In this document: positions 5,495 through 60,260 of the stretch, piece by piece | Layout: each line of letters opens with the position of its first letter | How positions within the stretch are numbered: the stretch's first letter is position 1 | Assembly (NCBI GenBank): GCA_964368085.1 | Contig: CAYJBG010000001.1 | Coordinates: forward strand, 23,135-87,134 | Source of the DNA: an uncultured Acidiferrobacterales bacterium | GTDB lineage: Bacteria > Pseudomonadota > Gammaproteobacteria > Acidiferrobacterales > UBA6901 | Length of the DNA: 64,000 bases | Direction: 5' to 3' | Position numbers and translations under genes: made by a program | The notes under the pieces: model-generated | Seen by the model: the letters and a program-made list of their open reading frames with translations, nothing else | Databases searched by the model: none | What the model was told of the DNA's origin: nothing

Positions 5495-5529
5495 GTATAT
5501 TCGTTCAAGCCACACATCAATTCACTACT

Positions 5530-6467: not shown

Positions 6468-6698
6468 ATGAAGAAACGCTTTTCCGAAGTACAGATCATC
6501 CGCTTTCTGCGGGAGGCCGACGCGGAATCAGCAGTGCAGGATTTGTGCCGTCGGTGTTTCTTTCGTAGCGAGTTACTACCTCTGGCGTATTAAATTCGGT
6601 GAATGGCGGTGTCGGAGACAAAGTGCCTGACGACACCGGAAGCAGAGAGCAGTCGACTGAAGCGACTGCTAGTGACGTCGCTCTGTGAGGACAAGGCA
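6468..6698 (+). pseudogene. IS3-family transposase orfA relic (at least 2 frameshifts, 3'-truncated)
   Basis: ATG 6468 follows ggaggtcggac. MKKRFSEVQIIRFLREAD..QDLCRR is in one frame, ASYYLWRIKFGEW in the next, and MAVSETK..EAESSRLKRLL in the third. Together these reproduce the conserved IS3/IS407-type OrfA helix-turn-helix protein. No orfB follows. A possible left end TGAC lies at 6341 (tentative). Confidence 0.75.
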
Positions 6699-8138: not shown

Positions 8139-8158
8139 TCAAACTACGGAGTATTTCA

Positions 8159-15200: not shown

Positions 15201-18200
15201 CACACCACCACCGACGACGTGTATCAAGGGCAGGTCAAGGCCAACAAAGACACGCTGTCGCTGCTCACAAAGGATCCCGATCTGCACGCGACGATCGGGA
15301 AGTGGATCGCTGACAGGAAGCTGTCGAAGTTGGCGGATCTCTGGGTCAAGGGCCTGGAGCTGGATTGGCGCAAGTTCCATGTTGCGACGCCCGCGCTGAT
15401 CAGCCTGCCAACGTATCCGTTCGCGAAGCAGCGGTTCTGGATCGACGCGGCGGTCGCCGCGCGCCGCGCGCCGCAGGCGCTGTCCGCGGCGCTTCACCCA
15501 CTGCTGCACAGTAACACCTCGGATTTCAGCCAGCAGAGCTACGCTGCGACGTTCGGCGCAGACGAGTTCTTCCTGACGGGTGCGCCCGGCCGGCGTTGTC
15601 TGACGGAAGCGGCATACCTGGAGATGGCGCGCGCTGCCATCGATGCGTCGATGCCCGCGCGGAAACAGTCGAGCATTCTCGAGCTGCGCGATGTCGCATG
15701 GGCGCAGCCGGGCGTCATAGTCGACAACAGGCCGGTCATGATCGCTCTGTTCGACAAGCTCGGTGAACAAGTGACGTTCGAGATATACAGCGCCGGCGGC
15801 GTGGATGGCGCCGGGGACATCGTGCACTGCCAAGGGCGTGCGGCCCGCAGCGATCAGCCGGCGGGCGCGAGGCTCGACATCGCCGCGATCGCGGTGCAGG
15901 AAGGGCGGGCGCTGATCGAATTGCGCCTGCCGACTGGGATGGAGAATGGCCAGGACGACTACGTCCTGCATCCCGCGCTGATGCAGAGCGCGCTGCAGGC
16001 GGCGGGCCTGACCAGCAGTTTGTCGCAACCCTTCGCCATGGCGTCGCTGCGCGTTGTCTTCCCCAGCACCAAGGCGAAGTTCGCATGGGTACGTCACTCG
16101 GCGTCTGCGGAGCGTGCGATCGACATCGATCTGTGCGACGAGCACGGCCATGTCTGTGTGCAGATGCGCGGCCTGCACTATGGGGTTTCCGCGACCCACG
16201 CTGCGGAAGCGCCTGCCGAACGTGCGTCGATCGAGGAGCCGAAATCGGTCGCGATCACCGATTCCGGTTCCGCTAAGCGCACCGCCCAGCCGACCCGCGT
16301 TCGCTTTGACACCTCGTCGTCGATCATCTCCGACGCGCCGATCCTGGAAAAGCTGAACCACAGTATCGCATTGAAGGCGCCCGGCGCATCGCTGGCGATC
16401 GTCGCCGAGCACGCCAAGGCGAGCCGGATCCGGTTCGCCGCCCCGCAGGCGGCGTTCTCCGACTGCTCGATTCTCGGAAAGCCGAACGGCAGCATCTTGC
16501 TGATGGCGCCCGACGCATCGCCCGAGGTCGAGGCCGAGCGCGGCGCCTCGGCCAAGCCGCGGGTCTTGCTTTCGCCGCCGATTGCCGGGATGGAGACGCC
16601 GGAACAATCGCGCGCCGCTTCCTCCGTCGGCCTGTTCGACTATGGCAACGGCGTGTTCGCGATCCGTATCGGCGCGGCCGTGAGCCGCAATACGCTGTCG
16701 GCCGACCTGATCGAGAATGTGCTGCGCGCGATGCGAACGGTCGAAGACGCCTCGTCGGCGAAGGTACTGACGATCGAAGGCAGCGACGAGCATTTCCTGG
16801 CCGGCGGACTCGAGCAGCATCGCGATGCCGTCGCCTCGAAGCTTTATAGCGCGATCGCGGAATTCCCGTATCCGGTGATCGCCGTGGTCCGCAACGATGC
16901 CGTCGGCGCCGGTTTTCTGGCCGCCGCGGTCAGCGATTTCATGGTGTGCAGTGACTCGGCACGCTATGCGTTTGCGCTTCCGGAAGAGGGGCTGTACCCA
17001 TCGGCCGCCGAGGACATCCTGATCGAGCGTTTCGGCCGTGCACACGCGACCGACTTCCTGTATATGACGACCGGCGCCACCGGCGCCGAACTCAAGGCGA
17101 AGGGCTGGACCTGCCCGATCATGCCGCGCGATCAGGTCGCGGCGTATGCCCAGGACCTGGCCGCGAATTTGGCGAAGAAATCCCAGATCTCGCTGCGGCT
17201 GCTAAAGCAGCACCTGGCGCGCCACATCGCCAGCGCGGTGAAGGCGTTGCCGACCGTCGATGGCGCACCGTTCGCGGCGGACGCGGCCAAGCCCGGCACG
17301 ATCAAAGCGCCTTCCGTGCGCCTCCAGTTGGATGCGCACGGCGAACGCGCGCTGGTCGTAAGGATCCGCGCGCAGGCGGACGGATCTAATGCGAAGGACC
17401 TGCTGGCCGACCTGGAAGCGGTATTCGCCAAGATCGACGACGCTTCGCCGTATCGCTGCGTGGTGCTCGCGAGCGAGCTCGTGCAGTTCCTGCCGGACGT
17501 TGCCGAGGACGCCCGCGCCGATGTCGCGCAGGGCTTCAGGAAGGCGTTGCTCGCGCTGGATCGCCCGATCGTTGCCGCCTTGAACGGTGACGCGACCGGC
17601 ATCGCCTGGTACGTCGTCCAGTTCTGCGACGCCTGCGTTTACAGCGAGCAGGGCCGCTATTCCGGCGCCGATATTCTGCGCGATCCCGCGTTGGCGGGCG
17701 ATGCGGCCGCGGTGTTTTCCCTGCGATTCGACGATGAGGCCGCGAAACAGATCCTGCTGGTGGGCGCCGAGGCTTCGGGCGTCGAATTGCGGGCCGACTA
17801 CGGTGCGCTCCATGTCCTGGGCGCCGATCAGGTGTTTGCGGGCGCGCTGGAACTGGCTGATGCTCTGGCCGCATTCCCGACGCCGGTGTTGTCCGCTTGG
17901 AAACAGCGCACCGCGTCGTTCCTCACCGCTGATACCGCGAGCCTCGGCGACGAGAGCATGCGGGCGGAGGAGGGAGCCGGTGACACCGCCGATGCGGCGG
18001 TCGGCGCGCCCGTTGCGGTCGCGCTCGAATCGACAGTGATCTCGGCGATCGCGCATCCGGAAGGCGTTCTGGAAGTGCATATGGCCGACCGTGACGCGAA
18101 GAACATGTTTTCCGACGCGTTCTCGCGCGGCATGCGCGAGGTGTTCGCGCATGTGGAGGAGAACCGTGCGTACAAGGTCGTGGTCATCACCGGATACGAC

Positions 18201-21200
18201 AACTATTTCTCATCCGGCGGGACACAGGACACGCTACTGGCGATCCACGAAGGCAAGGCCAGGTTCACCGACAACAAGGTCTTCCAATTGCCACTGACTT
18301 GCACGGTGCCGGTGATCGCTGCCATGCAGGGTCATGGCGTCGGCGCCGGTTGGGCCATGGGCATGTACGCGGACTTCGCGCTGTTCAGCGATGAAAGCCG
18401 CTACCTCAGCCCGTATATGGGCTATGGCTTCACGCCGGGCGCAGGCTCGACGCTGATGTTCCCGGAAAAGACCGGTTACGACCTCGCGCGCGAGACGCTG
18501 CTGACCGCGCAGGAGTACTCCGGTGGCGAGCTCAAGGATCGGGGTTTGCGCAATCCGGTGTTGCCGCGAGAGCGCGTGCTGCCTGCCGCGATGGCGCTGG
18601 CGCGACGGATCGCGCAGGGCTCCCGCGGCCGGCTCGTTGTCCTTAAGCGGCGTTGGGCACATGTCCTGCAAGCGTCCTTGCAGGACACGTTCGATCGCGA
18701 ACTGGCGATGCACGAGCGCACCTTCGTCGGGCAGGCCGACACACTGGCGCGGATCCAGGGCGGCTTCGGCGCCGAAGCCGCCGCACAAACTGTCGCGCCG
18801 CAGCAACCGGCCTCGCTGCCGGCCCGCGAGGAAGACCTCTGTGCCATCACCGCCAGCCTCAAGCAGATGCTGGCGCACGAACTGCGCATGCAGGAACACG
18901 AGATCGGCGAGGGCGAACAGTTCGTCGATCTCGGTCTGGATTCGATTACCGGCGTTACCTGGATCCGCAGGATCAACCAGAAGTACGGGACCTCGATCGA
19001 GGCGATCAAGGTCTACAGCTATCCGACGCTGACGCAGCTCAGCCGTTATGTCCGTGAGGAAGCTGAAAAGGCAGGGGCAGTGTTCATCGCGCCGCAGGTC
19101 CACACGCCTGTCGTTCCGATCGAAGTGCCTGCCGCGCGCCCGGTCGTGACCTCGCTGGCGTCCTGGCGCGATCGAAGCAGATCGAAGGCGGTCGCCGGGA
19201 CAGCCTCGGCCGCCGGACCCATCGCCGTGATCGGCATGGCCGGTCAGTTCGCGAAGGCCAGAGACCTCGAAGAGTTCTGGCAAAACATTGCCCAGGGCAA
19301 GGACTGCATCGAAGAGATCCCGAAACACCGTTGGGATATTGACCTCTACTATCAGGAGGGCGAAGTCGTGCCCGGCAAGACCTACAGCAAGTGGATGGGC
19401 TTTCTGGAAGAATATGACCTGTTCGACGCTGCGTTCTTCAATATCTCGCCGCGAGAGGCGAGAAGCATGGACCCGCAGCAACGCTTGTTCCTGCAGGCAT
19501 GCTGGCACAGCATCGAGCACGCGGGATACAACCCCAAGTCGCTTTCCGGCAGTAAATGCGGCGTGTTCGTCGGATGTTCCGCCGGCGACTACCACCAGCT
19601 TTCGAAGCGCGAACAGCTCAGCGGTCAAGGGTTCACCGGCGCGGCGCCGTCCATCCTGGCGGCGCGCATCTCTTATTTCCTGGACCTGCACGGTCCCAGC
19701 CTGTCCATCGACTCGGCGTGCTCTTCCTCGCTGGTCGTGATCGCCAGCGCCTGCGATAGCCTGGTCTCCGGCGCCAGCGACATTGCGCTGGCAGGCGGCG
19801 TCAACGTCATGTGCGGCCCAGCCATGCAGATCATGACCGCGCAAGTAGGCATGTTGTCACCGCAGGGCAGATGCTTCACCTTTGACGAAAGGGCGAACGG
19901 CATTGCCAACGGCGAGGGCGTCGGCGTCGTGATGCTGAAGAGACTGGCCGATGCGGAAAGGGATCGCGACTGGATTTACGGCGTCGTCGAAGGCTGGGGC
20001 GTCAACCAGGACGGCAAGACCAATGGCATCACCGCGCCGAACGCGGATTCGCAGACGCGCTTGCAGCAGGAGGTCTACGACAAGTTCCGGATCGATCCCG
20101 CCGGTATCCAGCTGATCGAGGCTCACGGCACGGGTACCGCGCTGGGCGATCCGATCGAAGTGGCGGGACTCAAGGCGTCCTTTGGAAAATACACCAGGAA
20201 CAAGGACTACTGCGCGCTCGGATCGGTCAAGAGCAATATCGGCCACTGCCTGACCGCCGCGGGCGTGTCAGGATTCCTCAAGATCCTGCTCGCGCTGAAG
20301 CACGAGCAGCTGCCGCCCACGATCCACTTCAGCAAGCTGAACAAGCATATTTCGCTGCAGGATTCGCCGTTCTATGTCAACGACCGGCTGCGCGAGTGGA
20401 AGCACAACGGGACCGAACCGCGTCGGGCCGCGATCAATGCGTTCGGCTTTAGCGGAACCAATGCGCACGCCGTGATCGCCGAGTACCGCTCGCAGCAGGA
20501 CATCGCAGCGCCTCGCGGGCCGGCGATTGTGCCGCTGTCGGCCAGGACGCCCGAGCAGCTCAAGCACAAGGGGCGTGATCTGCTCGCTTTCATTCGCGCA
20601 CAAAGCGCGTCGACGCTCTACCTCGACAGGATCGCCTACACCCTACAGGTCGGCCGCGAGGCGATGAACGAGCGCGCCGCTTTCATTGCGGGCACGGTTG
20701 CCGAGCTGGAGAGCAAGCTCGAGGCCTTCGTCGAAAGTGAAGATACCGATGGCGGCCCGCAGGCGGCGCACGTATATCGCGGCCAGGTGAGCAGCAACAA
20801 GGACACCTTGCTGGCACTCAGCTCGGATACGGATTTCCAGACGATGATCGCAAAATGGATCAGCAGGAAGGAATTGCCGAGACTGGCCGATCTGTGGGCG
20901 AAGGGCCTGGCCCTGGACTGGAACGCATTCCATGCGGCCGGCGACGCGCCGCGACGCATCGGTTTGCCCGTGTATCCGTTCGCCAAGGAGCGTTACTGGA
21001 TCGACGCGGCATCCGATGAACGCATCGTGCTGACCGGTCACGCGAACGCCGCCATCCATCCCTTGCTGCACGCCAACACGTCCGACCTGAGCCGGCAGAA
21101 GTACAGCACTACGCTCAATGGCGATGAGTTCTTCCTGATCGATTGCGATATTCCGGGAGGCGGTACGAAGCGGGTGTTGCCCGCGTCCGCCTGTTTGGAA

Positions 21201-24200
21201 ATGGCCCGGGCCGCCGTTGAGAACGCGGTCCCGGGTTTGCAGCAGTCCGAAGGCATAGAGCTGTGCGATGTCGAGTGGGGGCAGCCGGTCGAAGTCGGAC
21301 AAATCTCCATCGCGCTGTCGAGCCAACGCGACGGAAGTGTGGCGTTCGAGATCTTCAGCGGGGAACAGGAGGAAGTCGTTCATTGCCAAGGCGCTGTCGC
21401 GCTGCGCGGTGAGGTTGCGCCGAGTACGTTGGATCTTGCACTTCTACAAGGCCGGATCCGGAAAGGGGGCCAGACCCCGGAGAATCTGTACGATGCCTTC
21501 GCGAAGTCCGGTGTCAGGTACGGCGTCGTGCAGCGGGCTATTCACGAAATCCATACAGGCGACGACGAACTGCTCGTCCGCTTGGTGTCGCCTGCGGCGA
21601 TGGATGGCTCCCTCGGCGATTACCGGATTCATCCCAGCCTGATGGACAGCGCGATACAAGCCGGTATCGTCCTCCTCGGTGATCCCGCAGCGCGATCCGC
21701 CAAGCCGCTCTCTCCAGCGACGATCAATTCGGTGAACGTCGTATCGGCGTGTGCCGAAGAGGTGTTCGCCTGGGTCCGTCGTAGCGCAGCCGATCGTCGG
21801 AAGGCGGACATCGACCTTTGCGATCGGCACGGAAATGTATGCGTGCAGGTCAGGGGGCTGGCACTGCAGGCGCTGACGGTCGTAACGCCTCGCCCCGCGG
21901 ATACGGAAGTCGCGCCAGCGCGCGCGCAGCCGGCGCCACCCGTCTTCCAGCAGACGCAAGCCGCCGTTCGCCCGGCGACCACCGACGCCCGGCCGTCAAT
22001 CTCGCAAGAGCAGCTGCAGCAGCAGCTCAAGGCCAGTCTGGCCGAGGCGCTGTTCATGAAGCCCTTCGACGTGGACGTGAACAAATCCTTCACAGAACTC
22101 GGTCTGGATTCGATCATCGGCGTCGAGTGGGTCAAGACCATCAACAAGCAGTACGGCACCGGCATCTCAGCCACCCGGGTCTATGACTATCCCAGCGTGA
22201 AGGAGCTTGCCGCGTATCTGCAAGTCGAAATCGGCGGTGCAGTGTCTGGTTCCCTGGCCACCGTCGCCGTCAGCGCGGTCGCGCCGATCGATGCGCCGGA
22301 AGCGCGTCCCGCCGCGGAACCGGCGATCTCCCGCGAGGCCCTGCAGCTGCAGCTGAAGGCGAGTCTGGCCGATGCGCTGTTCATGAAACCTTCCGATGTC
22401 GACGTGAATAAGTCCTTCACCGAGCTGGGGCTCGATTCGATCATCGGCGTCGAGTGGGTCAAGACCCTCAACAAGCAGTACTGCACCAACATCTCCGCGA
22501 CCCGAGTCTACGACTATCCCAGCATCAAGGAGCTGGCGTCGTTCCTGATCGGAGAGATGGCCGCAATCAAGCTGCCGCAAAGCCCTGCATCGGCCCCGCT
22601 CGCAACCGTCATCGCGCAAAGCGATAAGCCGAGTCCGCGCGCGGAGACGGCGGTGCAGGGCGTTTCTCCGCCCCCGCGGGCGAAAGCGGCATTCGCCGGA
22701 AGAACCACCAGGTTCTCGAGACTCGAACGCATCCGCTTCGAGCCCAAGTACGCCAGGAACTTCAAAGATCTGTATTTCTATAGCCCTTATTGCCACGGCG
22801 ATTTCGAGGCAGAAGGCGAGTTTTCGGTTCAATGCGCTATCAACCCGGAAACCAACGTCAGTTTGAAGGAACACGTCGTCTTCGATGAGCATCTGTTGCC
22901 GACGGATGCGTACATCGAGCTGGTCTATTCCGCGTACAGAACCTATTTCTCCGCCGAAAACGTCTGCCTGAAGAATATCGCCATCGTCAATCCTATCTTG
23001 GGCGAGAAAGGCAGGGACAACCACATCAGGGTCGTGTTCCGTCGGGCCGGCGACGATCTCCAGTTCTTCGTCAAGTCCAGCCTTTCGCCCGATTTCCTGA
23101 ACGACAAGCTGCACATGCAGGGATTCGTCTCCATCGCGGATAAATCCCCTGCGACCAGGTTCGACGACGGATTCGCGATCGAAAATGAACTCGGCAGCGC
23201 GGAGATACCGACGAATACGGGGACGTACTATGCGCCTCTGCAGGCACTGCGATTCGGCGAGTCTTCGGCGGTCGGTCTTATCAGCGTACCGGGCCACGAT
23301 TTCAAATTCCTGGCGAGCCCGTTTGTGTTGTACGGAGGGCTGTGCACCGTCATCAACTACGGTGCCTATCTGGCAGGAAGGCATCATGGGATCAGCGACG
23401 ATCAATTCCTCCCGCATAGGATCGGCAATATCGCGGTCCTGGGTTCCCTGAACGAATCCGATTACCGCTGCTACGCCGAAGTCAGGAAGCTGGAAAGGGA
23501 TTCAGTGGAGTTCTATTTCGAAATCGTCGACCGGGCGGGCAAGCCAATGCTAGTTGTCGACTCGATCAGTTTGCGCCGGGTCGCGAGAAAGACCATCCAG
23601 CAGCAAGCGGCGGCCGCGAAGACGCTCCCGGTGATCGATAAGAAGGATCCTTCGATCGAGGCGGGCGCGGCGGCCGAAAAGATTGCCATCATCGGCATGT
23701 CCTGCCGTTATCCGATGAGCGAGAACGTCGACACGTTCTGGGAGAACCTCAAAGCGGGCAAGGATTGCGTGATCGAAGTACCCGCCGACCGCTGGGGTGC
23801 CTATTCCGACTGGTATCACCCTGATCCGCGCCACCCGCACACCTCGTATTCCAAGTGGAGCGGATTCCTGGACAGCATCGACACCTTCGACGCCCTGTTC
23901 TTCGGCATCTCGCCTGCGGAGGCGGAACTCATTGATCCGCAGCAGCGCATTTTTTTGGAGGAATGCTGGAAGACCATCGAGAGCGCTGGTTACGCGCCGA
24001 GCACGCTGTCTAACAGCCCTTGTGGTGTATATGTGGGCTGCTCTATGAGCGATTACGGCAGGGTGCTGGCCACCGATGGCCAGGACACCGCCGGTGCCGC
24101 CTTCATGGGTACGTCCAGCGCGATCCTGGCCGCGCGGATTTCCTATTACCTGAACCTCAAGGGCCCGGCCTTGGCGCTGGATACTGCGTGCTCGTCGTCC

Positions 24201-28150: not shown

Positions 28151-31100
28151 CACTCCCATGCGGACAAGCTGAACGACCTGCTCGCGACGGCGCCGGCCAA
28201 CATCGCGAAAGCCGCGCAGGCGCAGCCCGCCACCGTGGCGTCCCCGGCGCTACAGGGGCAGCGAGCCGGCCGTCGCAACCGCCAACGCTATCCGTCCGCG
28301 CCGGCGAGCGCGCAGGCGCCGCCGCCCGCCAACGAGCCCATCGCGATAGTCGGCTTGAGCGGCCGTTATCCCGAGTCGAGGGATATCGAGGAGTTCTGGC
28401 GCAATCTGCGGGATGGCAAGGACTGCATCGTTGAGGTCCCGAAGGAACGCTGGGATTGGCGGCAGTACTACAGCGAGGACCGGACGAAGGAGGGCGCTCA
28501 CTACAGCAAGTGGGGCGGGTTCATCGAGGGCGTGGACGAATTTGATCCGCGCTTCTTCAACATCGCGCCGCGCGAGGCGCGCACGATCGATCCGCAGGAA
28601 CGCCTGTTCCTGCAGTACGCCTGGATGGCGATCGAAGACGCCGGTTACACTCGCGCCAGTCTGCAGATTCCGAACGCTAGCGGCCAGGCCGGTCAGGTCG
28701 GCGTCTACGCTGGCGTGATGTACGGCGAATACAATCTTTCGGGCAGCCTGGCGAGCATCGCCAATCGTGTTTCGTACTTCCTGAATCTGCACGGCCCCAG
28801 CCTGACGCTGGACACCATGTGCTCGTCGTCGCTGACTGCGATCCATCTCGCGTGTCAGGACCTGCGGCTGGGACGAACCAGCCTGGCGCTCGCTGGCGGC
28901 GTGAACGTCAGTATTCATCCGAACAAGTACACGATGCTGAGCGGCGGCCAGTTCATCTCCAATGATGGCCACTGCCAGAGCTTCGGCGAGGGCGGCGGCG
29001 GCTACATCCCGGGAGAGGGCGTGGGCGTGGCCGTCCTCAAACGGTTGTCCGACGCCGAGCGCGACGGCAACCATATCTACGGCGTGATCCGCGGCAGCGC
29101 GCTCAATCACGGCGGCAAGACCAACGGTTACACGGTGCCGAATCCACAGGCGCAGGCCGAGGTCATCCGCCGCGCGCTGGTCGAGGCCAGGATCGACCCG
29201 CGGCACGTCAGTTACATTGAGGCCCATGGTACGGGCACTAAGCTGGGTGATCCGATCGAGATCGCGGCTCTGACCAAGGCGTTCTACGAAGGCGCTCAGT
29301 TATCCGCGCGCGAGGTCGAGTTCTGCCTGATCGGTTCGGCCAAATCCAATATCGGCCATTGCGAATCGGCGGCGGGCATCGCCGGAGTGACCAAGGTGCT
29401 GCTACAGATGAAGCACGCCTCCATCGTACCGTCGCTGCATTCCAAGAAGCTCAACCCGCATATCGATTTTAAGACCACGCCCTTCGTCGTCAATCAGACA
29501 CTGCAAAGCTGGGAGCAGCCGGAGCTGGATGGCCAGCTCAAGCCCCGCATCGCCGGCATCTCATCGTTCGGCGCGGGCGGCTCGAACGCGCACCTGATCA
29601 TCGAGGAGTACCGCACGCCCGAGCAGCCGATCGCGACCATGCACGTACAACTCGTCGTGCCGCTGTCAGCGAGAACCGCGGAGCAACTGGAGCAACGTGT
29701 CCGCGATCTGTTGGCGTTCATCGAGCGCAGCGAGCGCCCCATCGATCTGCGCGCCATGGCCTACACCCTGCAGGTGGGACGCGAAGCGATGGAGGAGCGC
29801 GCGGCCTTCCTGGCGATCTCCATCGAGGATCTGACCGCGAAACTGAAGTCGTTCCTGAAGGGTGACGACGCGGGCGGCGATGTCCATCGCGCCCAGGTAA
29901 AGCAGCACCGAGAAGCGCTCGCGCTGCTCGCCGCGGATGCAGATTTCCAGAACTCCATCGAGCAATGGATCGAAGACAGGAAGCTGCCGAAGCTGGTGGA
30001 GCTGTGGGTCAAGGGAATGGAGCTGGACTGGTCCAGGTTGATCGACGCCGGTAGCGTGCCGCGGCTGATGAGTCTGCCGACGTATCCCTTCGCCAGGGAG
30101 CGCTACTGGGTCGAGCCGCCGGCCATGGCTGCCGTGGCGACGGTGCAGCAGACGACGGTTCTGCATCCTCTGGTGCACGCGAACACGTCGAATCTGCTGC
30201 AGCAAAGTTACGCGTCCCGCTTCGCGGGAAGCGAATCTTTCCTCGACGAAGGTCCGATGGCGGGGCAGAAAGCGCTGCCGCCGCTGCTCGTGCTGGAGAT
30301 GATCCGTGCCGCCGTCGAGCTGGCCTCGCCGCAGCGGTCGGAATCCGGCCAGTGGGAACTGCGCGATACGGTGTGGGGTGAGCCGCTGCTCATTTCAAGC
30401 GAGCGCACCGTCGGTATCGCGCTGTTCCCGCGCGCCAACGATACCGTCGATGTTGAGATCTACAGCGGGACCGGAACCGTCGATGGCGCGGACGACTGCG
30501 TCCACTGCCAGAGCCATGCGGTGTTCAGCCGCCTTCCCGCGCCGGCGCGCGTGGATATCGCGCGGCTCAAGGACGCGATGCGGGCGCAGCCGGATGCATT
30601 GCATGCCGTTTACCTGGACGACGGTCAGGCTTTGGCGCAGGTGCGCCTGCCGACGCGATCCGACAAGGATCGCGCCGAGTATACCCTGCATCCGGATCTG
30701 CTGAAGCAGTTTGCACAACTGCTGGATCGCGTTGCCGGCGCGTCGTTGTCACCCACGTCTCTCGAGTGCCTACGGTTCGTATTCGCATGCCCGGAGAACA
30801 CGGTCGTGTGGCTGCGCTATTCGTCGTCCGCAGCCGTCGACATCGACGTCTGCGACGAGCAGGGCAACGTCTGCGTGCAGATGAGCGGCCTGTGCTGCGA
30901 GTCCGTCGCGCAGGCCGCGATGATCGTGGCCGCCGACGTTCGCGCAACGGTTGCACCGGTGCTGGTCGACGCAGCGGTAATGGTCGAGCCCGCGCCGGCG
31001 ACCACACCGACACAGCCTCTGGCGCAAGCGGCCGGACCCAGGGAAATCGTTCTGACGCCGGTGACGACGCACGAGCCTGAGACCCAGTTCGAGCCGGTGA

Positions 31101-34100
31101 GCAAGAAGCCGACCGGTGTCCGCTTGCTAGCGAGCGCCGAAGTGCCGTCAAGTCCAGTCGCGGCAAAAGCGACCGTAGCGCTTTCCGTTCTCTCGGCGAA
31201 GCCCTGGTCGTCCACTTTCACGAAGGAGGCGTCCCGGCCGGTCCGCTTGTTCGAGTTGGGTGCTGGCGTGTTCTCCATTGAAATGGAAACTACCTCCTTC
31301 GAGGCGGTGATCGAACCGTTATTGCAGGGCTTGAACCGGGCCCGCAATGAAACGTCGCTCAAAGTCCTGCTGCTGATCGGCCGCCAAGCGAACTCCTGGT
31401 GCGGCGACCGGAACGCCAGCAATGCGGCGACAGAGCGCCGTTTGTTCAGTGTCGTCGCGGTTTTCCCTTGTCCGGTCATCGCCGTCGTGCAAGGCGATGC
31501 CGTGGGTGCCGGATTGTTGTTGGCTTCGGTCTGCGACCTCATGGTGTGCAGCGAGGACGGGCAGTATGGCTACACCGACATCGCATCGGGGATTTTCCCG
31601 AGCGCGGGCGAAGAGCGTTTTTTCCGTGAACGGCTGGGCGATGCCGTCGCCGACGACTTGCTCTATCGGTCCACGCGATGCAGCGGTCGGCGGCTTAACG
31701 CCAAGGGCTGGGCCTGCCGCGTCGTGCCGTCGGCACAGGTGGAGGCCGACGCCCAGCGCCTCGCCGTCGATCTGTCGCGCAAATCGCAGCTCGCGCTGGG
31801 TCTGCTCAAGACCCATCTGGGCCGCCACCTCTCCCCGCTGGTCGACCATCTGGCCGCGGTCGATGTCTTGCATGCCGCGCCCCGCGCCGCGGAACACGCG
31901 GTGGATAGCGCACTGGTGCTAAAGCTCGGCGCCGACCGGGAGGCCTACGACCTGCAGGCGCTGATCACCGATCTGAAGCTCGCCTTCGATCACGTCGGCG
32001 AGGCATTGGAATACAAGTCCGTCGTGCTCACCAGCGTGTTGGGCGGGTTCCTGCCGCAGATAGACGAGGCCAGTGACGCCGCGACCGTGGCCGAGTTGAA
32101 GCATCTTGTGCGCTGTTGCCCTGTGCCGCTGATCGCGGCATTCGAATCGAACGCCGATGGCCTGGCCTGGCTGTTTGGCTTGTTCTGCGACACCGTGGTT
32201 TACAGCAACGACGGCCGCTATTCCGCGTCCGCCCTGTGGGCGGCGCCGTCGTGCGCGCGCGAGGCCGCGGCCCTGTGCACGCAGCGCCTCGGCGCGTCGT
32301 TCGGGCAAGAAGTCTGCCTGACCGAAGGCAGCTACTCGGGTGCGGATCTGCGGGCACGTATGGGCGCGCTCGTCGCCGTCGACAGCGACGAAGTGATGCC
32401 CCAGGCGCTGCGCCTGGCCGCATTCTGGGACGCGTGGCCGCGCGCCACCGTCGTCGCCTGGAAACTGACACAAACCGCGCATCTGCAACGTCTGCTGGAG
32501 GCGTTGCCTGACGCGCAGTTATTGGAGGATGGCTCTGCCGTCGCGACGGATCCGACCACCGTCTCGGCACCCACGGCCATCGCGCTTCGCTCCACCGTTA
32601 TCAGTGCCACCGCACATCCCGAAGGCGTGGTGGTAGTCAGCATGCAGGAGCGGGACGCAAAGAATATGTTCTCCGAGGCACTGGTCAGCGGGCTGAAGGA
32701 GGCCTTCGCGCACATCGCACAGACCCCCGCCTACAAGGCGGTGGTGTTGACCGGATACGACAGCTACTTCGCGACCGGCGGCACGATGGAGACGCTGTTG
32801 GCGATCCAGCAAGGCCAGGCGCAGTTCACCGACGAAAAGGTGTTCCAGCTGCCGATGGACTGCCTGCTGCCGGTCGTCGCCGCGATCCAGGGCCACGGCA
32901 TCGGCGGCGGCTGGTCTTTCGGCATGTTCGCCGATCTCGTTGTGCTCAGCGAAGAGAGCCGCTATCTCAGCCCGTACATGGGATACGGCTTCACGCCGGG
33001 CGCGGGCTCCACGCTGATGTTCCCGGAAAAGATCGGGTACGACCTGGCGCGGGAAACGCTGCTGACCGCGCAGGAGATTTCGGGTCGCGAACTGAAGGAA
33101 CGCGGTGTGCCGCTGCCGGTGTTGCCGCGGCGCGACGTGGTTGCGGCCGCGATCGGCCTGGCCACGCGCATGGCGCGGCAGCCGCGCGCGCGACTGATCG
33201 GGCTCAAGCGGCTGTGGACGCATGCGCTGCGCCAGTCGCGCGAGGACAGCTATCGGCGCGAAGTCGAGATGCACGAGCGGACCTTCGTCAGGAACGCCGA
33301 AACACTGGGGACGATCCAGGCCAAGTTCTCTGCGGAAACCGCACAGACTCAGGTCACGGTCGCGAAGGTCGGGCAGCCGGCGTCGTCCATCGTCGGAAAA
33401 CTCAAAGCGATGCTGGCGCAGGAGCTGTTCCTGAAGCCCGAGGAGATCGACGAGGACACTCAGTTCATCGATCTCGGACTGGATTCCATCACTGGCGTGA
33501 CCTGGATCCGCAAGATCAATGCGCACTATGGCACGGACATCGAAGCGACCAAGGTCTACAGCCATCCGACACTGAAGCAACTCAGCCAGCTCGTCGCGAG
33601 CGAGGCCGTGATCGAAAACGCGCCAGCGCCCGCCGCCGCGATTGCGCAGCAGGCCGGAACGAAGGGTCAGGCCGCTTCGGCGCAGGTAGCTGGCGTGTCG
33701 TCGTCGACGGAGCGCGAGAGCCTTGACAGCGTCATCACCAAACTCAAGGCGATGCTGGCGAAGGAACTGCTGCTGCGGCCCGATGAGATCGAGGAAACCG
33801 TGCAGTTCATCGACATGGGGCTGGATTCGATCACCGGCGTCACCTGGATGCGCAAGATCAACGAGCACTACCGAACGGACATTGAGGCCACCAAGGTCTA
33901 TAGCCATCCGACGCTGCAGGAGATCGGCCGTCTGGTGCAGCAGGAAGCCGAAAAAGCCGGAACGCTGGCCAAGCCTGTGCCCGCACAGGCGGCTCCGCCC
34001 ACCGGCGTGCGGCAACCGGTCCCGTCCGCGCGTCGCGCACTCGCGTCGTGGCGCCGACAGGCGCGCGCCAATGCGCGCATCGCGCCGCAGGCAGAAGCGG

Positions 34101-37100
34101 CCGGCGGGGCGCGGCCGATCGCCGTCATCGGCATCGCCGGCCAGTTCCCGCAGGCGAAGAATCTTGACGAGTTCTGGGCGAATCTGGCCGAAGGCAGGAA
34201 CTGTATTGACGAAGTGTCTGATGCGCGTTGGAGCCTCGGCGACTGTTTCCAGGCCGGCACACCCACGCCGGGAAAGACCAACAGCAAATGGTTCGGCGCC
34301 CTGGACGAGTACGATCTGTTCGATCCGCTATTCTTTAATATATCGCCGACCGAAGCCGAATGCATGGACCCGCAGCAGCGCATGTTCCTGCAGACATGTT
34401 GGCACAGCATCGAGAACGCCGGCTACAGTCCGCAGTCCTTGTCCGGCAGCCAATGCGGTGTATTCGTCGGTTGCGGACCCAGCGACTATCACCAGATATC
34501 GCGCGAGCAGCAACTGAGTGCGCAGGGTTTCACTGGCGCGGCGAGTTCGATCCTGGCAGCACGGATCTCGTATTTCCTGAACCTGCGCGGTCCCTGCATT
34601 GCGATCGAAACCGCGTGTTCGTCGTCCCTGGTCGCGATCGCCAATGCCTGTGACAGCCTGAACACCGGCAACAGCGATCTGGCCCTGGCTGGGGGTGTCT
34701 ACGTCATGGCGGGTCCCGCCATGCACATCATGACCTCGCAGGCTGGTATGCTGTCGACCGATGGCCGCTGCTACACCTTCGACCAGCGCGCGAATGGCTT
34801 CGTACCGGGCGAGGGCGTCGGCGTGCTGATGCTGAAGCGCCTGGCGGATGCCGAGCGCGACCAAGATCGCATCCTAGGGGTGATCGAAGGCTGGGGCGTG
34901 AACCAGGACGGCAAGACCAACGGCATTACCGCACCCAACGAAGAATCGCAGACTCGGTTGTTGCAATCGGTCTACAAGAAATTCGGCATCGATCCCGCCG
35001 GCATCCAACTCATCGAAGCGCACGGCACGGGCACCAAGCTGGGCGACCCGATCGAGGTCGCCGGGCTGAAGGCCGCGTTCAAACCCTTTACCGACAAGTC
35101 CGGCTACTGCGCCCTCGGCTCGGTGAAGAGCAATATCGGCCACTGCCTCACCGCTGCGGGCGCCGCCGGGTTCATCAAGCTGATCCTGGCCTTGAAGCAT
35201 CGCTCGCTGCCGCCGACGATCAACTACGAACGTCGCAACGAACATATCCAGCTCGACGGCAGTCCGTTCTACATCAACGACACGCTCAAGCCCTGGAACG
35301 TCGCGCAGGGCGAAAAGCGCCGCGCCGCGATCAGCTCGTTCGGTTTCTCCGGTACCAATGCCCACCTCGCGATCGCCGAGCATGTGCCGAGCGTGCAGGT
35401 CAGGCCGGACGTCTCCATCGTCGCGCAAGACGGCAAGATCATCGTGCCCTTGTCGGCGAGAACCGAATCGCAGCTAAGGCAGAAGGCGCAAGATCTGTTG
35501 GCGCATATCCGCAGGAATCCGTCTCTCGATCTGGCGGAGCTCGCCTATACCCTCCAAGTCGGCCGCGATGCGATGGGCGAACGCCTGGGCTTCCTGGTCG
35601 GCTCGCTGGATGCGCTGGCCGCCAGGCTCGAGGCGTACGTGACGGGCGAGGGCGATGTTGAAGGCGCTTATCAGGGCCAGGTCAAGCGCAACAAGGAAGA
35701 GTTGAAGCTCATCACTCAGGACGACGAGATGAGAGCGACGATTGTCGGCAAATGGCTGAGCGAGTACAAACTATCCAAGCTGCTGGACCTGTGGGTCAAG
35801 GGCCTGAATCTGGACTGGCACCTGCTATACGGCGAGGCGAAGCCGCAGCGCATCGAATTGCCGAACTATCCGTTCGCGAAGGACCGCTACTGGCTCGATG
35901 CCGGCACTACGCTGCCGCTTTTGGCCCCGCTTTCCTCGCACAACTCGGCACGCGACATTCTGCATCCCTTGCTGCACAAGAACACCTCGTTGCTGAGCCA
36001 GCAACGTTACCGTTCGAATTTCAGTGGCAAGGAGTTCTTCTTCGATATGCAGATCGATGGCGTAAAAGTCCTGTCCCCGCTGTCCTTACTGGAGATGGCA
36101 CACGCGGCCGTTGCGCAGGCGACGCTCGATCTCGCTGAGCCCGCAATGATCGAACTTAGCCGAATAAGCTGGAGGAAGCCGCTGTTCGTCGCTGGCGATA
36201 CGGAGCTAGAGGTTGTCATCGATTTGTTCGCGAACGAAGATGAAAGCGTCTCCTTCGAGATCTACACGACGGCAACGAACAGCGCGGGCGAATCGGAACT
36301 CACCGTTCATGTCCAGGGTGTTGCCTGCTTCATCGAGCGGATTTCGTCTGGGCGCGTCGACATCGCTGGCCTACGCAAGCAATCGTTCGCCGAAAGATTC
36401 GATACACCGGCCTTTTATGCGGGCTTGAAACGTGCCGGAGTGGATTACGGAAATGCGCTGCAAGGCTTGCAGGCCATCCATCTCGGCCACAATCAATTGT
36501 TGGCGCATATCGGTCTGCCTGGCGCCCTCGACAGCTATGGGAAGGACTATGCGCTTCATCCGAGCTTGCTCGAAGGCGCAGTGCAGGCCTGCATGGTCTT
36601 TGTCAGCGATGCGAACGAGCTGTCGGCTCAAGCCTTGTCGCCCGTTTCGATCGATTCCTTGACGGTCGTAGCGGATTGCGAAAGAGCTTGTGAAGCTGAA
36701 ATGTTCGCCTGGATTCGGTATTCGGATCGTGTCGATGACGATGTGAGCGATGGCGACGTGCATTCCCGGAAACTGGATGTCGACATCGTGGATGCGCAAG
36801 GCGATTGTCGCGTCGCGATCCGCGGGCTCGTTCTGGGCTTGGCGACCGTGAGTGAAGTCGCCGCCGCGCTGCCGGAAACGGCGATGACGACCCCTCTGTG
36901 GGATGTGATCAAAGATTTCGACGACGCAGCCGATCCGGTTGCCGGAAAACGGATTCTGGTGATCGGTGCGAACGACGAGCAGAGATCGGCCCTTGAGCGG
37001 CACTATCGGGAATCGACGACCGCTTTCGTGAACATATTCGAGGCCGACACCGTCGCCGATATCAGCGGAAAGCTGGAAGGCGTCGAGTTCGACAAGCTGG

Positions 37101-55876: not shown

Positions 55877-55885
55877 TTGCCGGGG

Positions 55886-56356: not shown

Positions 56357-56367
56357 CGGAGCAATTT

Positions 56368-57201: not shown

Positions 57202-58461
57202 ATGAACATGGTTGGAATCGAAGCGATGAACCTCTTTGCCGGTACAGGCTTTGTGGATGTAACGAAGCTTGCTAGGCATCGAAAGCTGGACATGAGTCGG
57301 TTTGAAAATTTGATGATGAAGGAGAAAAGCGTCGCCTTGCCCTATGAGGATCCCATCACTTTTGCAGTCAATGCAGCGAAGCCAATTATTGATGCATTGA
57401 TTCCCGAAGAGAAAGACCGGATCGAGATGGTGATTACTTGCACGGAATCTGCGTTCGATTTCGGAAAATCCATGAGCACCTACTGTCACGATGTGCTCGG
57501 GCTGAATCGCAACTGCCGTCTGTTTGAGCTGAAGAACGCCTGTTACTCGGGCGTTGCTGGCCTACAGATGGCGATCAATTTCGTCTTGTCCCAAACATCG
57601 CCGGGCGGCAAGGCATTGGTCATCGCCACCGACGTTTCCCGTTTCATGGTCGAAGAAGGTGGTGACGCGCTTTCGGCCGACTGGTCCTTCGCCGAGCCGA
57701 GCGGTGGATCCGGGGCTGTTGCAATGTTGATCAGTAACAAGCCCTACGTGTTCCAGATCGATGTGGGCGCGAACGGTTATTACGGTTACGAAGTGATGGA
57801 CACCTGTCGGCCTTCTGCGGACACTGATGCGGGGGACACGGATTTGTCCTTGCTTTCGTATTTGAATTGCTGCGAGAACGCCTACCTCGAGTATCAGAAG
57901 CGCGTCGACGGCGCTCATTTCGGAGAAACCTTCGGTTACTTGGCCTATCACACGCCGTTCGGCGGAATGGTCAAGGGCGCTCACCGCAACATCATGCGCA
58001 AGTTTGTCAAAGCTAAACCGGCGGACATTGAAGATGATTTCCAGCGTCGTGTGACGCCCGGTCTCATCCATTGCCAGCGGGTAGGCAATATCATGGGCGC
58101 GACCGCCGCGCTCGCCCTTGCCAGCACCATCGATAACGGAGAATTCGAAACGCCTAAACGCGTCGGGGTCTTCTCCTACGGTTCGGGCTGTTGTTCGGAA
58201 TTCTTTAGCGGCGTTGTCAGAAAAGAAGGCCAGGAACGTCTGCGAGCGCTCAAGATCAAGGAAAGACTGGACTACAGGTATGAGCTGTCGATGGAGCAGT
58301 ACGACCGCCTGCTCGAGAAGAGTCGGGAACTGAAATTTGGTACGCGCAACATGGTTCCAGACATGGAATTTATCCCGAAGGCCAGAACGACCCTTAACCA
58401 ACCAACCTTGCTACTGAAACAGATCAAAGAGTTTCATCGAGAGTACGAATGGGTATGCTGA
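57202..58461 (+). CDS. HMG-CoA synthase-like beta-branching enzyme (HMGS; PksG/CurD/MupH type)
   Basis: ggagg lies before ATG 57202. Active-site motif ELKNACYSGVAG (Cys codon 57541), plus YHTPFGGMVKGAH and GNIMGA. 419 aa. Confidence 0.92.
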   Translation: MNMVGIEAMNLFAGTGFVDVTKLARHRKLDMSRFENLMMKEKSVALPYEDPITFAVNAAKPIIDALIPEEKDRIEMVITCTESAFDFGKSMSTYCHDVLGLNRNCRLFELKNACYSGVAGLQMAINFVLSQTSPGGKALVIATDVSRFMVEEGGDALSADWSFAEPSGGSGAVAMLISNKPYVFQIDVGANGYYGYEVMDTCRPSADTDAGDTDLSLLSYLNCCENAYLEYQKRVDGAHFGETFGYLAYHTPFGGMVKGAHRNIMRKFVKAKPADIEDDFQRRVTPGLIHCQRVGNIMGATAALALASTIDNGEFETPKRVGVFSYGSGCCSEFFSGVVRKEGQERLRALKIKERLDYRYELSMEQYDRLLEKSRELKFGTRNMVPDMEFIPKARTTLNQPTLLLKQIKEFHREYEWVC

Positions 58462-60020: not shown

Positions 60021-60260
60021 ATGAGTAAAGAGAAAATCTTTGAGATCATCGTTCGCCATACCCGTGAGGTGGTTCCGAGATTGGAAGATCATCAGTTTCA
60101 GCCGAGCGATTCACTGAGGGCGCTGGGCGCCAATTCGGTCGACCGTGCCGACATCATCATGATGACTTTGGAGTCCTTGGCTCTGAACATTCCTTTGATT
60201 GAAATAGCCAAAGCCGACAACATCGGGGAATTGGCCGGTATTTTCCATGAGAAGTCCTAG
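60021..60260 (+). CDS. Discrete donor ACP of the HMGS cassette (AcpK/MacpC type)
   Basis: 79-aa acidic protein with LRALGANSVDRADIIMM (Ser attachment site). ggag lies upstream. It sits between ECH2 and the decarboxylating KS. Confidence 0.8.
   Translation: MSKEKIFEIIVRHTREVVPRLEDHQFQPSDSLRALGANSVDRADIIMMTLESLALNIPLIEIAKADNIGELAGIFHEKS

What the first reader, a model, noticed from the sequence alone, without database searches (positions are those of the whole stretch)
31240..33335. Second copy of the triple-crotonase array, followed by an ACP doublet
Seen: PKS2 repeats the ECHa/ECHb/ECHc order with the same pattern of motif retention and loss. ECHb' is again the degenerate unit and ECHc' is again ECH2-like. 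Here two Trp-flagged ACPs follow instead of one. Conservation of a motif-less middle unit in both copies argues that it is retained for a structural or regulatory reason rather than being recent debris. In addition, discrete ECH1 and ECH2 genes exist downstream, so the cluster encodes eight crotonase-fold units for three branch points.
Basis: partly seen in the sequence, partly recalled or inferred. Interest (0 to 1): 0.65.

Follow-up and report, generated by a model that had tools for sequence, protein, structure and literature searches.

The report
Triple crotonase block in a polyketide synthase
A giant antibiotic-type assembly-line enzyme carries three fused copies of one enzyme fold, of which only the last looks active; the other two are ancient, conserved, apparently non-catalytic partners, which extends a known two-copy arrangement to three.

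Summary
PKS2 (26459-41941) carries three consecutive crotonase-fold units: a' 31226-31888, b' 31889-32563 and c' 32564-33343. Two Trp-flagged ACPs follow (33344-33958). The block mirrors a-b-c-ACP in PKS1 (16614-19088). Only c/c' keep the ECH2 decarboxylase signature: both oxyanion loops and the catalytic His of PksI/CurF. Units a and b lack the His helix and have no conserved catalytic acid. Both are closer to ECH2 than to ECH1.

The middle unit is not debris:
- It is present and gap-free in at least 92 arrays from many phyla.
- It is as conserved as KS, ACP and c in a close ortholog (0.88, against 0.33-0.73 for linkers).
- It folds with high confidence. The whole triad gives pLDDT 87.5/88.1 and pTM 0.89/0.90, so it is predicted as one rigid body.

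dN/dS could not be measured because dS is saturated.

Best reading: a beta-branch module, KS-DH*-a-b-c-ACP(n). Unit c acts in cis as the decarboxylase, as in the kalimantacin and pederin logic. Units a and b are structural, probably completing a single-chain mimic of the crotonase trimer. That geometry is inferred, not shown.

The known relative is the "truncated inactive ECH + ECH2" didomain. I found no description of the three-unit form. The two arrays are ancient paralogs, not a recent copy.

The parts
28328..29623 (+). KS5, the ketosynthase of the branching module (PKS2 aa 624-1055)
   Evidence: Pfam ketoacyl-synt N and C domains, 284 and 145 bits; envelope.
30164..30919 (+). DH-like domain (DH*) upstream of the array (PKS2 aa 1236-1487). 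It lacks the HxxxGxxxxP catalytic motif.
   Evidence: PF21089 and PF14765 hits. The motif scan found no HxxxGxxxxP here. N-terminal sequence shown.
31226..31888 (+). ECHa' (PKS2 aa 1590-1810). A crotonase fold that keeps the GDAxGAG loop but has no catalytic His helix and no conserved catalytic acid.
   Evidence: PF00378 84 bits; 42% identical to a of PKS1; family consensus and column counts; pLDDT about 90-97.
31889..32563 (+). ECHb' (PKS2 aa 1811-2035). The most degenerate crotonase unit: both Gly-rich oxyanion loops and the His helix are lost. It has its own conserved motifs (FLP, PVIAAL, AW, CDACVY, WK).
   Evidence: PF00378 37 bits; phmmer against PksI E 6.5e-17; consensus; pLDDT mostly 84-97; conservation against linkers.
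32564..33343 (+). ECHc' (PKS2 aa 2036-2295). A complete ECH2-type decarboxylase domain. The catalytic His is His2272 (nt 33272-33274) in EMHERTF.
   Evidence: PksI 238.8 bits and CurF 188 bits. His aligned to PksI His230. His conserved in 99% of 73 arrays. Foldseek match to PksI with TM 0.90.
33344..33643 (+). First Trp-flagged acceptor ACP (DSITGVTW)
   Evidence: PF00550 64 bits; motif.
33686..33958 (+). Second Trp-flagged acceptor ACP (DSITGVTW), 72% identical to the first
   Evidence: PF00550 51 bits.
34106..35395 (+). KS6, the downstream KS that receives the branched chain. It is 69% identical to KS3, which follows array 1.
16614..18788 (+). First a-b-c array in PKS1 (a 16614-17303, b 17304-18008, c 18009-18788). 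Catalytic His is His3165 (nt 18711-18713).
18789..19088 (+). Single Trp-flagged ACP after array 1
22002..22595 (+). Third branch site: a Trp-flagged ACP doublet in PKS1 (DSIIGVEW twice) with no in-line ECH
57202..58461 (+). HMG-CoA-synthase homolog (trans-acting cassette)
   Evidence: Pfam HMG_CoA_synt N and C domains.
58449..59234 (+). Discrete ECH1 dehydratase (PksH-like; the GADF and SELLFG catalytic motifs are kept)
   Evidence: PksH 3hp0 316 bits, with alignment; catalytic residues from PMC7501309.
59231..59983 (+). Discrete ECH2 decarboxylase (70% identical to PksI; has the AMHELTF His)
60021..60260 (+). 79-aa discrete ACP (LGANSVDR), probably the donor ACP
   Evidence: Gene call in L003; translation. 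The donor role is inferred from its position in the cassette.
60247..61515 (+). Discrete KS of the cassette (KS0-type role inferred)
   Evidence: Pfam.

Best explanation
The region is the beta-branch-processing block of one trans-AT polyketide synthase module: KS, DH*, ECHa', ECHb', ECHc', ACP, ACP.

Proposed sequence of events:
1. The module KS makes a beta-ketoacyl chain on the two Trp-flagged ACPs.
2. The trans-acting cassette (donor ACP, KS0, HMG synthase) adds acetate.
3. The discrete PksH-like ECH1 dehydrates the adduct.
4. The in-line unit c', a complete ECH2 decarboxylase with both oxyanion loops and His2272, decarboxylates the intermediate in cis.

By analogy with the kalimantacin mECH and with pederin-type modules, in-cis decarboxylation most likely gives an exo-methylene branch. 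The same would happen at array 1. The third flagged ACP site has no in-line ECH. It would be served by the discrete ECH2 and would get a different, endo-methyl branch.

Units a' and b' are ancient, selectively maintained, catalytically dead crotonase folds of ECH2 ancestry. They pack with c' into one rigid three-lobed body. This is most likely a single-chain imitation of the obligate crotonase trimer, giving one active site per PKS chain.

Shown here:
- Domain identities.
- Presence or absence of catalytic residues.
- Conservation of each unit.
- A confident rigid three-unit model.
- The module and cassette context.

Inferred:
- The catalytic order.
- The exo regiochemistry.
- The trimer-like geometry.
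For: - Domain calls and motifs.
- c/c' match PksI at 239 bits. The His equivalent to PksI His230 is conserved in 99% of 73 arrays. PMC7501309 shows that His is the essential catalytic residue and that PksI is a trimer.
- a and b stop before the His helix. Their E144 and E164 equivalents are hydrophobic or variable.
- a and b score higher against the discrete ECH2 than against ECH1 (99 and 72 bits against 40 and none).
- AlphaFold2: PKS2 triad pLDDT 87.5 and pTM 0.89; PKS1 triad 88.1 and 0.90. Only the two short inter-unit linkers are uncertain.
- b is constrained like the catalytic domains.
- At least 92 a-b-c arrays occur in diverse bacteria, nearly always followed by 1-4 flagged ACPs.
- KS3 and KS6, downstream of the two arrays, are 69% identical. 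They are at most 55% identical to any other KS, including KS4 after the ECH-less branch site. This fits the same branch type at arrays 1 and 2 and a different one at site 2.
- The cassette is complete: HMGS, a PksH-like ECH1 with its Asp and Glu, a PksI-like ECH2, an ACP and a KS.
- Literature: a truncated inactive ECH upstream of ECH2 is commonly associated with exo-methylene (lasonolide preprint; sesbanimide preprint). In-cis mECH against trans BatE controls exo against endo in kalimantacin (PMC12560621).
Against: - No coordinates or PAE were available. The trimer-like arrangement rests on pTM alone plus knowledge that crotonases are trimers.
- The common two-unit form (truncated ECH + ECH2) cannot make a trimer from one chain, so trimer completion cannot be the general explanation for dead ECH units.
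- Regiochemistry cannot be read from sequence. c is equally distant (44-48%) from the kalimantacin mECH and from BatE. The lasonolide authors propose an endo-methyl from a truncated-ECH + ECH2 module.
- Unit a keeps a Gly-rich loop and 36 columns at 80% conservation or more, more than a pure spacer might need.
- The product of this cluster is unknown.
Confidence: 0.6

Rival explanations
1. Units a and/or b are docking or gate-keeping surfaces rather than trimer-completing scaffolds. They would recruit the trans-acting HMGS or ECH1, or the ACPs. Alternatively they would sterically exclude the discrete ECH2, so that the in-cis c unit wins and fixes the branch type.
For: - Unit a has 36 strongly conserved columns, including surface-type motifs (KGWTCPI, ERFG, LRLLKQHL) not shared with c.
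- The literature already invokes competition between in-cis and in-trans ECH2.
- Dead ECH units also occur singly in didomains, where a trimer cannot be completed from one chain.
Against: - There is no direct evidence of any partner.
- pTM 0.89-0.90 shows a and b pack tightly on c rather than lying exposed as independent modules.
- This rival is not exclusive with the scaffold idea.
Confidence: 0.25
2. Unit a (or b) is a cryptic catalyst. It could be an in-cis dehydratase replacing ECH1, or a double-bond isomerase that sets the exo-methylene.
For: - Unit a retains the GDAxGAG oxyanion-type loop.
- Its best solved-structure match is a real 3-hydroxypropionyl-CoA dehydratase (70.8 bits).
- a1 has an LPEE motif at the E164-equivalent region.
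- Labrenzin authors treated the upstream unit of pederin-type didomains as a putative ECH1.
Against: - The E144 equivalent is Leu in 55 of 73 arrays.
- The E164 equivalent is Asp in only 27 of 73 and is otherwise variable.
- The first oxyanion loop is remodelled.
- a and b resemble ECH2, not ECH1.
- A fully equipped discrete ECH1 is encoded in the cluster.
- b has lost both loops.
Confidence: 0.1
3. The a and b units are decaying remnants of tandem duplications with no function, carried along neutrally.
For: - b has few invariant residues: 9 columns at 80% or more, and mean pairwise identity 26.5%.
- b1 falls below the Pfam gathering score.
- dN for b is about 2.5 times that of c.
Against: - The reading frame is intact and the units are gap-free in at least 92 arrays across phyla.
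- b is as conserved as KS, ACP and c in a close ortholog and clearly above linkers.
- b has its own conserved motifs.
- The fold is predicted confidently.
- The two window arrays are ancient.
Confidence: 0.03

Closest known systems
Truncated (inactive) ECH + ECH2 didomain followed by tandem Trp-flagged ACPs, in exo-methylene-forming trans-AT PKS modules (pederin PedI, onnamide OnnB, nosperin, sesbanimide SbnO, lasonolide LasH and LasO, FR901464)
   Same: - A motif-poor, shortened crotonase unit sits directly upstream of a complete ECH2.
- It is followed by one or more DSxxxxxW ACPs.
- It is served by a trans HMGS cassette that includes a discrete ECH1.
- The unit upstream of c in the Burkholderia FERM BP-3421, Nostoc UHCC 0926 and Ensifer PKSs scores against both my a and b profiles (69/66, 106/72, 63/39 bits).
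- Literature descriptions.
   Different: - Here there are two dead units, of two distinct and separately conserved families (a and b), giving three crotonase folds per chain.
- A DH-like domain without a catalytic His precedes them. The three didomain PKSs I examined have no DH and no hidden third unit.
- I found no description of the three-unit form in the held literature.
Kalimantacin (batumin) modular ECH2 (mECH) against the trans-acting BatE
   Same: - One cluster combines in-line ECH2 domains at some branch sites with a discrete ECH1/ECH2 pair, and has a branch site without an in-line ECH.
- The literature attributes exo against endo branch choice to in-cis against in-trans decarboxylation.
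- The Eleftheria terrae bat-like cluster was recovered as a hit.
   Different: - The kalimantacin-type PKS has a single in-line ECH2 with no dead partners.
- Its mECH is no closer to c (44-46%) than BatE is (44-48%).
PksI and CurF ECH2 (solved structures 4Q1G, 2Q2X), beta-branch decarboxylases
   Same: - c' matches PksI at 239 bits and 46% identity, with Foldseek TM 0.90.
- c' keeps the equivalents of His230, Gly66 and Gly108.
- a and b are also most similar to these among PKS crotonases.
   Different: - PksI is a free-standing homotrimer (CurF ECH2, as I recall, also crystallises as a trimer). Here one active unit is fused to two inactive relatives in a megasynthase.
- a and b lack the C-terminal His helix.
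PksH and CurE ECH1 dehydratases
   Same: The discrete 261-aa protein at 58449-59234 is a clear member: 316 bits to PksH, with the Asp68 and Glu137 equivalents kept.
   Different: None of the in-line units belongs here. a and b score 18-44 bits or nothing against the cluster's ECH1.

Membership tests
Crotonase / enoyl-CoA hydratase superfamily (PF00378) | Significant match to the family profile | tested here: met
   a' 84 bits, b' 37 bits and c' 173 bits, all above the gathering score of 27. b of PKS1 scores 24 bits, just below it, but is 33% identical to b'.
Crotonase / enoyl-CoA hydratase superfamily (PF00378) | Crotonase fold (repeated beta-beta-alpha spiral plus helical C-terminal part) | tested here: met
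   AF2 gives pLDDT 87.5 and 88.1, with repeating strand and helix patterns in all three units. The Foldseek match was to the c-sized part (TM 0.90 to PksI). a and b were not searched separately; b matches PksI at E 6.5e-17 by sequence.
ECH2 beta-branch decarboxylase (PksI / CurF ECH2) | Catalytic His on the C-terminal helix (PksI His230, CurF His240) | tested here: met
   Met for c' (His2272, EMHERTF) and c (His3165), and conserved in 99% of 73 arrays. Not met for a and b, which end before this helix.
ECH2 beta-branch decarboxylase (PksI / CurF ECH2) | Two Gly-containing oxyanion-hole loops (PksI Gly66, Gly108) | tested here: met
   - c keeps YFATGGT and QGHGIGGGW.
- a keeps only the second loop (GDAxGAG).
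- b keeps neither (S..FLP and gnAxGxAW).
ECH2 beta-branch decarboxylase (PksI / CurF ECH2) | Decarboxylation of 3-methylglutaconyl-ACP | not testable with these tools
   Needs an enzyme assay.
ECH1 beta-branch dehydratase (PksH / CurE), considered for unit a | Asp next to the first oxyanion residue and Glu at the E164-equivalent position (PksH Asp68, Glu137) | tested here: not met
   In the a family the loop-1 region is FLxGgR, with no conserved Asp there. The E164-equivalent column is Asp in 27 of 73 arrays and otherwise variable. The E144 equivalent is Leu. a scores 27-44 bits against the cluster ECH1 and 76-99 against ECH2.
Truncated-ECH + ECH2 tandem of exo-methylene modules | Shortened, motif-poor ECH immediately upstream of a complete ECH2 | tested here: met
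   Both a and b fit. Literature definition.
Truncated-ECH + ECH2 tandem of exo-methylene modules | Exactly two ECH units per module | tested here: not met
   Three units here and in at least 92 arrays. The examined didomain PKSs have two.
Truncated-ECH + ECH2 tandem of exo-methylene modules | Followed by Trp-flagged ACP(s), with a trans HMGS cassette in the cluster | tested here: met
   DSITGVTW twice. HMGS, ECH1, ECH2, ACP and KS lie downstream.
Truncated-ECH + ECH2 tandem of exo-methylene modules | Product carries an exo-methylene at the corresponding carbon | not testable with these tools
   The product is unknown. Only indirect support exists: KS3 and KS6 are 69% identical to each other and distinct from KS4.
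Beta-branching acceptor ACP (Trp flag) | DSxxxxxW motif | tested here: met
   Found at PKS2 aa 2340 and 2454 and at PKS1 aa 3239, 4295 and 4404. Absent from the other ACPs. Motif as cited.
Single-chain pseudo-trimer of crotonase folds (proposed) | Three units related by approximate three-fold symmetry, as in PksI and CurF trimers | tested here: inconclusive
   pTM 0.89 and 0.90 show a fixed inter-unit arrangement. Coordinates and PAE were not available, so the symmetry was not checked.

The most novel reading that the evidence does not exclude
The a-b-c array is a single-chain pseudo-trimer. Evolution fused one active ECH2 with two dead paralogs, so that an obligately trimeric fold can sit as a self-contained body with one active site inside a dimeric megasynthase. 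More broadly, the long-noted 'truncated inactive ECH' units of exo-methylene modules would be oligomer-completing scaffolds rather than relics.
Probability: 0.45. Interest if true: 0.65.

Novelty: new variant of a known kind. Interest (0 to 1): 0.5.

Why it matters
In-line ECH domains decide which kind of beta-branch a polyketide receives. The 'inactive' ECH next to them has been noted repeatedly but never explained.

This analysis shows three things about the three-unit form:
- It is a widespread, ancient module type with two distinct dead-unit families.
- Both dead-unit families are under constraint.
- The whole block is predicted to be one rigid body.

That gives a concrete, testable structural hypothesis: a pseudo-trimer with one active site. 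It also gives profile definitions that would let genome-mining tools recognise units current Pfam thresholds partly miss.

It matters for engineering beta-branching modules, because excising c alone may fail. It also matters for predicting structures of orphan trans-AT products. If the pseudo-trimer idea is wrong, what remains is a solid but modest extension of a known architecture.

Tried and rejected
1. The search for homologous proteins with the 706-aa triad returned only 2 hits, probably because the word index was saturated. The exhaustive representative search replaced it.
2. I suspected the kalimantacin PKS carried the triad, because Eleftheria terrae covered 91% of the query. It does not. 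All three query units hit one single in-line ECH2.
3. dN/dS was attempted by NG86, YN00 and ML on window against Desulfobulbus and on array 1 against array 2. dS is saturated (ML dS 17-21) or biased by shared codon usage, and YN00 failed. Only dN is usable: b 0.60, a 0.51, c 0.22-0.26.
4. I tried to obtain DNA of closer relatives:
   - The single-protein metagenome scan gave only 41-43% relatives.
   - The close PKS1 ortholog P0024 is 5744 aa, above the 5000-aa limit of the contig look-up.
5. Foldseek against afdb50 was unavailable.
6. Model coordinates are not exposed, so trimer geometry could not be checked.
7. Literature searches for three ECH domains, ECH-ECH-ECH, triple ECH, pseudo-trimer and similar terms found nothing relevant. 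The primary kalimantacin paper (Walker 2019) is not held.
8. I tested unit a as an ECH1-like dehydratase and rejected it.
9. I tested recent duplication or gene conversion between the arrays and rejected it.
10. I looked for a hidden third unit in known didomain PKSs and found none.
Full report
**1. What is in the sequence**

The window holds three co-directional giant ORFs:
- PKS1, 9219-26462, 5747 aa.
- PKS2, 26459-41941, 5160 aa.
- PKS3, 42002-55876, 4624 aa.

Downstream lie an HMG-CoA-synthase homolog, two discrete crotonases, a small ACP, a free KS and acyltransferases. This is a trans-AT PKS cluster with a beta-branching cassette.

The finding's coordinates correspond to PKS2 aa 1594-2293. 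Pfam finds three consecutive ECH_1 (PF00378) domains there:
- a', 31226-31888, 84 bits.
- b', 31889-32563, 37 bits.
- c', 32564-33343, 173 bits.

Two PP-binding domains follow (33344-33643 and 33686-33958). Both carry DSITGVTW, which matches the DSxxxxxW beta-branching flag (motif as quoted).

PKS1 holds the same order at 16614-18788 (103, 24 and 163 bits), followed by one flagged ACP. Units pair with their counterparts at 42% (a), 33-34% (b) and 65% (c), and much less with other unit types.

A third flagged ACP pair (PKS1 aa 4295 and 4404) has no in-line ECH. PKS3 has no flagged ACP.

**2. What each unit is**

c and c' are complete ECH2 decarboxylases.
- They score 239 bits to PksI and 188 bits to CurF ECH2.
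- Foldseek gives TM 0.90 to PksI.
- They keep both oxyanion loops.
- They keep the His aligned with PksI His230 (His2272 in PKS2, His3165 in PKS1).
- PMC7501309 shows that His is the essential catalytic residue and is universally conserved in branching decarboxylases.

The discrete 261-aa protein is a PksH-type ECH1. It scores 316 bits and keeps the Asp68 and Glu137 equivalents. The discrete 250-aa protein is 70% identical to PksI.

Units a and b are different from both.
- Each is about 200-210 residues of fold and ends before the His-bearing C-terminal helices.
- a keeps a GDAxGAG loop, but its first oxyanion loop is remodelled.
- In a, the E144-equivalent is Leu and the E164-equivalent is variable (Asp in 27 of 73 arrays).
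- b has lost both Gly-rich loops.
- Both score higher against ECH2 than against ECH1.

So they are degenerate descendants of the decarboxylase lineage, not dehydratases.

**3. Module context**

Each array sits in a module of the form KS, linker, DH-like domain, a-b-c, flagged ACP(s), next KS. The DH-like domains lack the HxxxGxxxxP motif.

KS3 and KS6 lie directly downstream of the two arrays. They are 69% identical to each other and at most 55% identical to every other KS, including KS4 after the ECH-less branch site. In trans-AT PKSs, KS clades follow the structure of the incoming chain; this is established knowledge that I did not test here. On that rule, arrays 1 and 2 would make the same branch type and site 2 a different one.

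**4. Is the middle unit under constraint?**

An exhaustive HMMER search of 1.84 billion representative proteins with the 706-aa triad found many giant PKSs that match the whole triad as one stretch. Re-annotation gave the following:
- 63 internal and 29 contig-edge a-b-c arrays.
- 32 a-c didomains.
- 20 lone c units.

Carriers include Steroidobacter, Sporocytophaga, Fulvivirga, Kordia, Thermoanaerobaculia, Janthinobacterium, Massilia, Teredinibacter, Pseudoalteromonas and a Desulfobulbus MAG.

Across 73 complete arrays the three families compare as follows:

| Family | Mean pairwise identity | Columns at 80% conservation or more |
|---|---|---|
| a | 34% | 36 |
| b | 26.5% | 9 |
| c | 53% | 100 |

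Each family has its own motifs:
- a: FPYPVIA, GDAxGAG, CDFMVCSE, ERFG, KGWTCPI, LRLLKQHL.
- b: FLP, PVIAAL, AW, CDACVY, WK.

Formal dN/dS failed. Against the Desulfobulbus ortholog dS is saturated. Only dN is informative: b 0.60, a 0.51, c 0.22-0.26.

I used domain-against-linker conservation instead.
- In the 77.5%-identical PKS1 ortholog P0024, b is 88% identical. That compares with a 86%, c 90%, KS 90-91% and ACP 90%. Linkers are 33-73%.
- In the 46-47%-identical PKS2 orthologs, b is 45-48% identical with no gaps. Linkers are 17-36% with gaps, and the DH-like domain is 39-43%.

AlphaFold2 with a 29-sequence alignment gave these results:

| Triad | pLDDT | pTM |
|---|---|---|
| PKS2 | 87.5 | 0.89 |
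| PKS1 | 88.1 | 0.90 |

The b unit is mostly at pLDDT 84-97. Only the two short inter-unit linkers are low.

**5. How old is the 'second copy'?**

The two arrays are 47% identical overall. Arrays from unrelated PKSs are 35-50% identical to either one, so the two window arrays are no closer to each other than to those. Only P0024 (array 1) and P0006, P0010 and L001 (array 2) are specific orthologs. At DNA level nothing exceeds 71.5% over c plus ACP.

The arrays are ancient paralogs or independently recruited module blocks, not a recent duplication.

ACP number after a triad varies from 1 to 4. It differs between orthologs: the Steroidobacter protein has one ACP where this PKS2 has two. The doublet is therefore ordinary variation.

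**6. Relation to what is known**

The held literature describes tandem ECH plus tandem ACP modules as typical of exo-methylene formation, in the pederin family, sesbanimide and oocydin. It debates whether the first unit is functional.

The lasonolide preprint states that a truncated ECH lacking the oxyanion motifs just upstream of ECH2 is commonly seen with exo-methylene. It proposes that the truncated unit is inactive.

In kalimantacin an in-line ECH2 must out-compete the trans ECH2 to give the exo-methylene. The same in-cis against in-trans logic is suggested for phormidolide, leptolyngbyalide and oocydin.

I checked accessible examples.
They have no DH and no hidden third unit.
- The Eleftheria terrae bat-like PKS has a lone c-type unit.

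Searches for any description of three ECH domains in one module found nothing. That covers open-access text only.

I therefore classify the triad as a new variant of a known kind. It is common in sequence databases but apparently undescribed.

**7. Mechanism**

Most likely, the cassette and the discrete ECH1 build the 3-methylglutaconyl intermediate on the flagged ACPs. Unit c then decarboxylates it in cis. The discrete ECH2 serves the ECH-less site.

Units a and b are non-catalytic. Crotonases, including PksI, are trimers. The three fused units are predicted as one rigid body (pTM about 0.9). The simplest reading is a single-chain pseudo-trimer with one active site.

That geometry is an inference, because I could not inspect coordinates. 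Two points count against it as a general explanation:
- Didomains cannot complete a trimer from one chain.

A docking or gate-keeping role for a and b remains a live alternative and is not exclusive. Exo regiochemistry is by analogy only: c is equidistant from the kalimantacin mECH and BatE, and an endo product has been proposed for one didomain module.

**8. Verdict**

It extends a known architecture and offers a testable structural idea. Interest is moderate.

Noticed in passing
window 15495-16178, 21057-21884, 30164-30919: All three beta-branching modules carry a DH-like domain (PF21089/PF14765) that lacks the HxxxGxxxxP catalytic motif; the sequence has FFLTG... where the His should be. 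The close PKS1 ortholog P0024 lacks the one at the ECH-less site altogether (79% gaps).
   Followed up: partly
window 22812-23588 (PKS1 aa about 4533-4790): A further DH-like domain sits after the flagged ACP doublet of the ECH-less branch site and before KS4. This is an unusual post-ACP position, reminiscent of double-bond-shifting DH domains. My simple regex also found no HGTGT motif in KS4.
   Followed up: no
window 14000-36000 against the flanks; arrays against 57202-59983: Composition is heterogeneous. The block holding both arrays is 63-66% GC, the later PKS parts 56-61% and the flanks about 49-52%. GC3 of the in-line ECH units is 0.80-0.85, against 0.63-0.72 for the discrete HMGS, ECH1 and ECH2 genes of the same cluster. 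This suggests a mosaic origin.
   Followed up: partly
window 13632-14954, 28328-29623, 44897-46216 (KS2, KS5, KS8): KS2, KS5 and KS8 are 78-81% identical to each other. The other domains of the two branching modules are only 33-65% identical. This points to either a shared substrate type or gene conversion among KS domains.
   Followed up: no
related proteins P0006, P0013, P0014, P0015, P0009, P0067, P0069, P0066, P0050 and L001: Many carriers from different phyla have the triad at almost the same position (aa about 1550-1700) of a PKS of 3300-5200 aa. Massilia and Teredinibacter each have two triad-bearing PKS proteins. This looks like a widely dispersed orphan cluster family related to this window. 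P0003, P0004 and P0005 carry two triads in one protein.
   Followed up: partly
P0006 (Steroidobacter cummioxidans) against window 33344-33643: The PKS2 ortholog has a single ACP where the window has a doublet. ACP copy number after the triad changes between orthologs.
   Followed up: yes
L002 (Pseudomonas sp. NPDC089392), about 3863-7425 and 12083-12940: There are several consecutive discrete crotonase genes, four ORFs with c-profile scores of 70-108 bits. This is a separate, non-PKS-embedded run of crotonase paralogs.
   Followed up: no
window 26459-26462: The PKS1 stop codon overlaps the PKS2 start codon (4-base overlap), suggesting translational coupling. The ECH1/ECH2 and HMGS/ECH1 genes also overlap.
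   Followed up: no
window 31319-34015, minus strand: Long antisense ORFs run across the array (for example 32519-34015, 498 aa; 31919-32488; 32028-32570). They are probably the usual artefact of high-GC coding DNA. I did not test them.
   Followed up: no
window 10-8899 and 55877-57075; L003 beyond the window end: Cluster periphery. Upstream are an MMPL-family transporter, a LolA-like protein, a GMC/FAD oxidoreductase, an acyl-activating enzyme and an SDR. Between PKS3 and the HMGS are a PEMT-like methyltransferase and a metallo-beta-lactamase-fold protein. Downstream are two ATs, an 879-aa methyltransferase-like protein and a PPTase. The exact HMGS protein recurs in the runs ERR3858115, SRR32696705 and SRR32696702.
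   Followed up: partly
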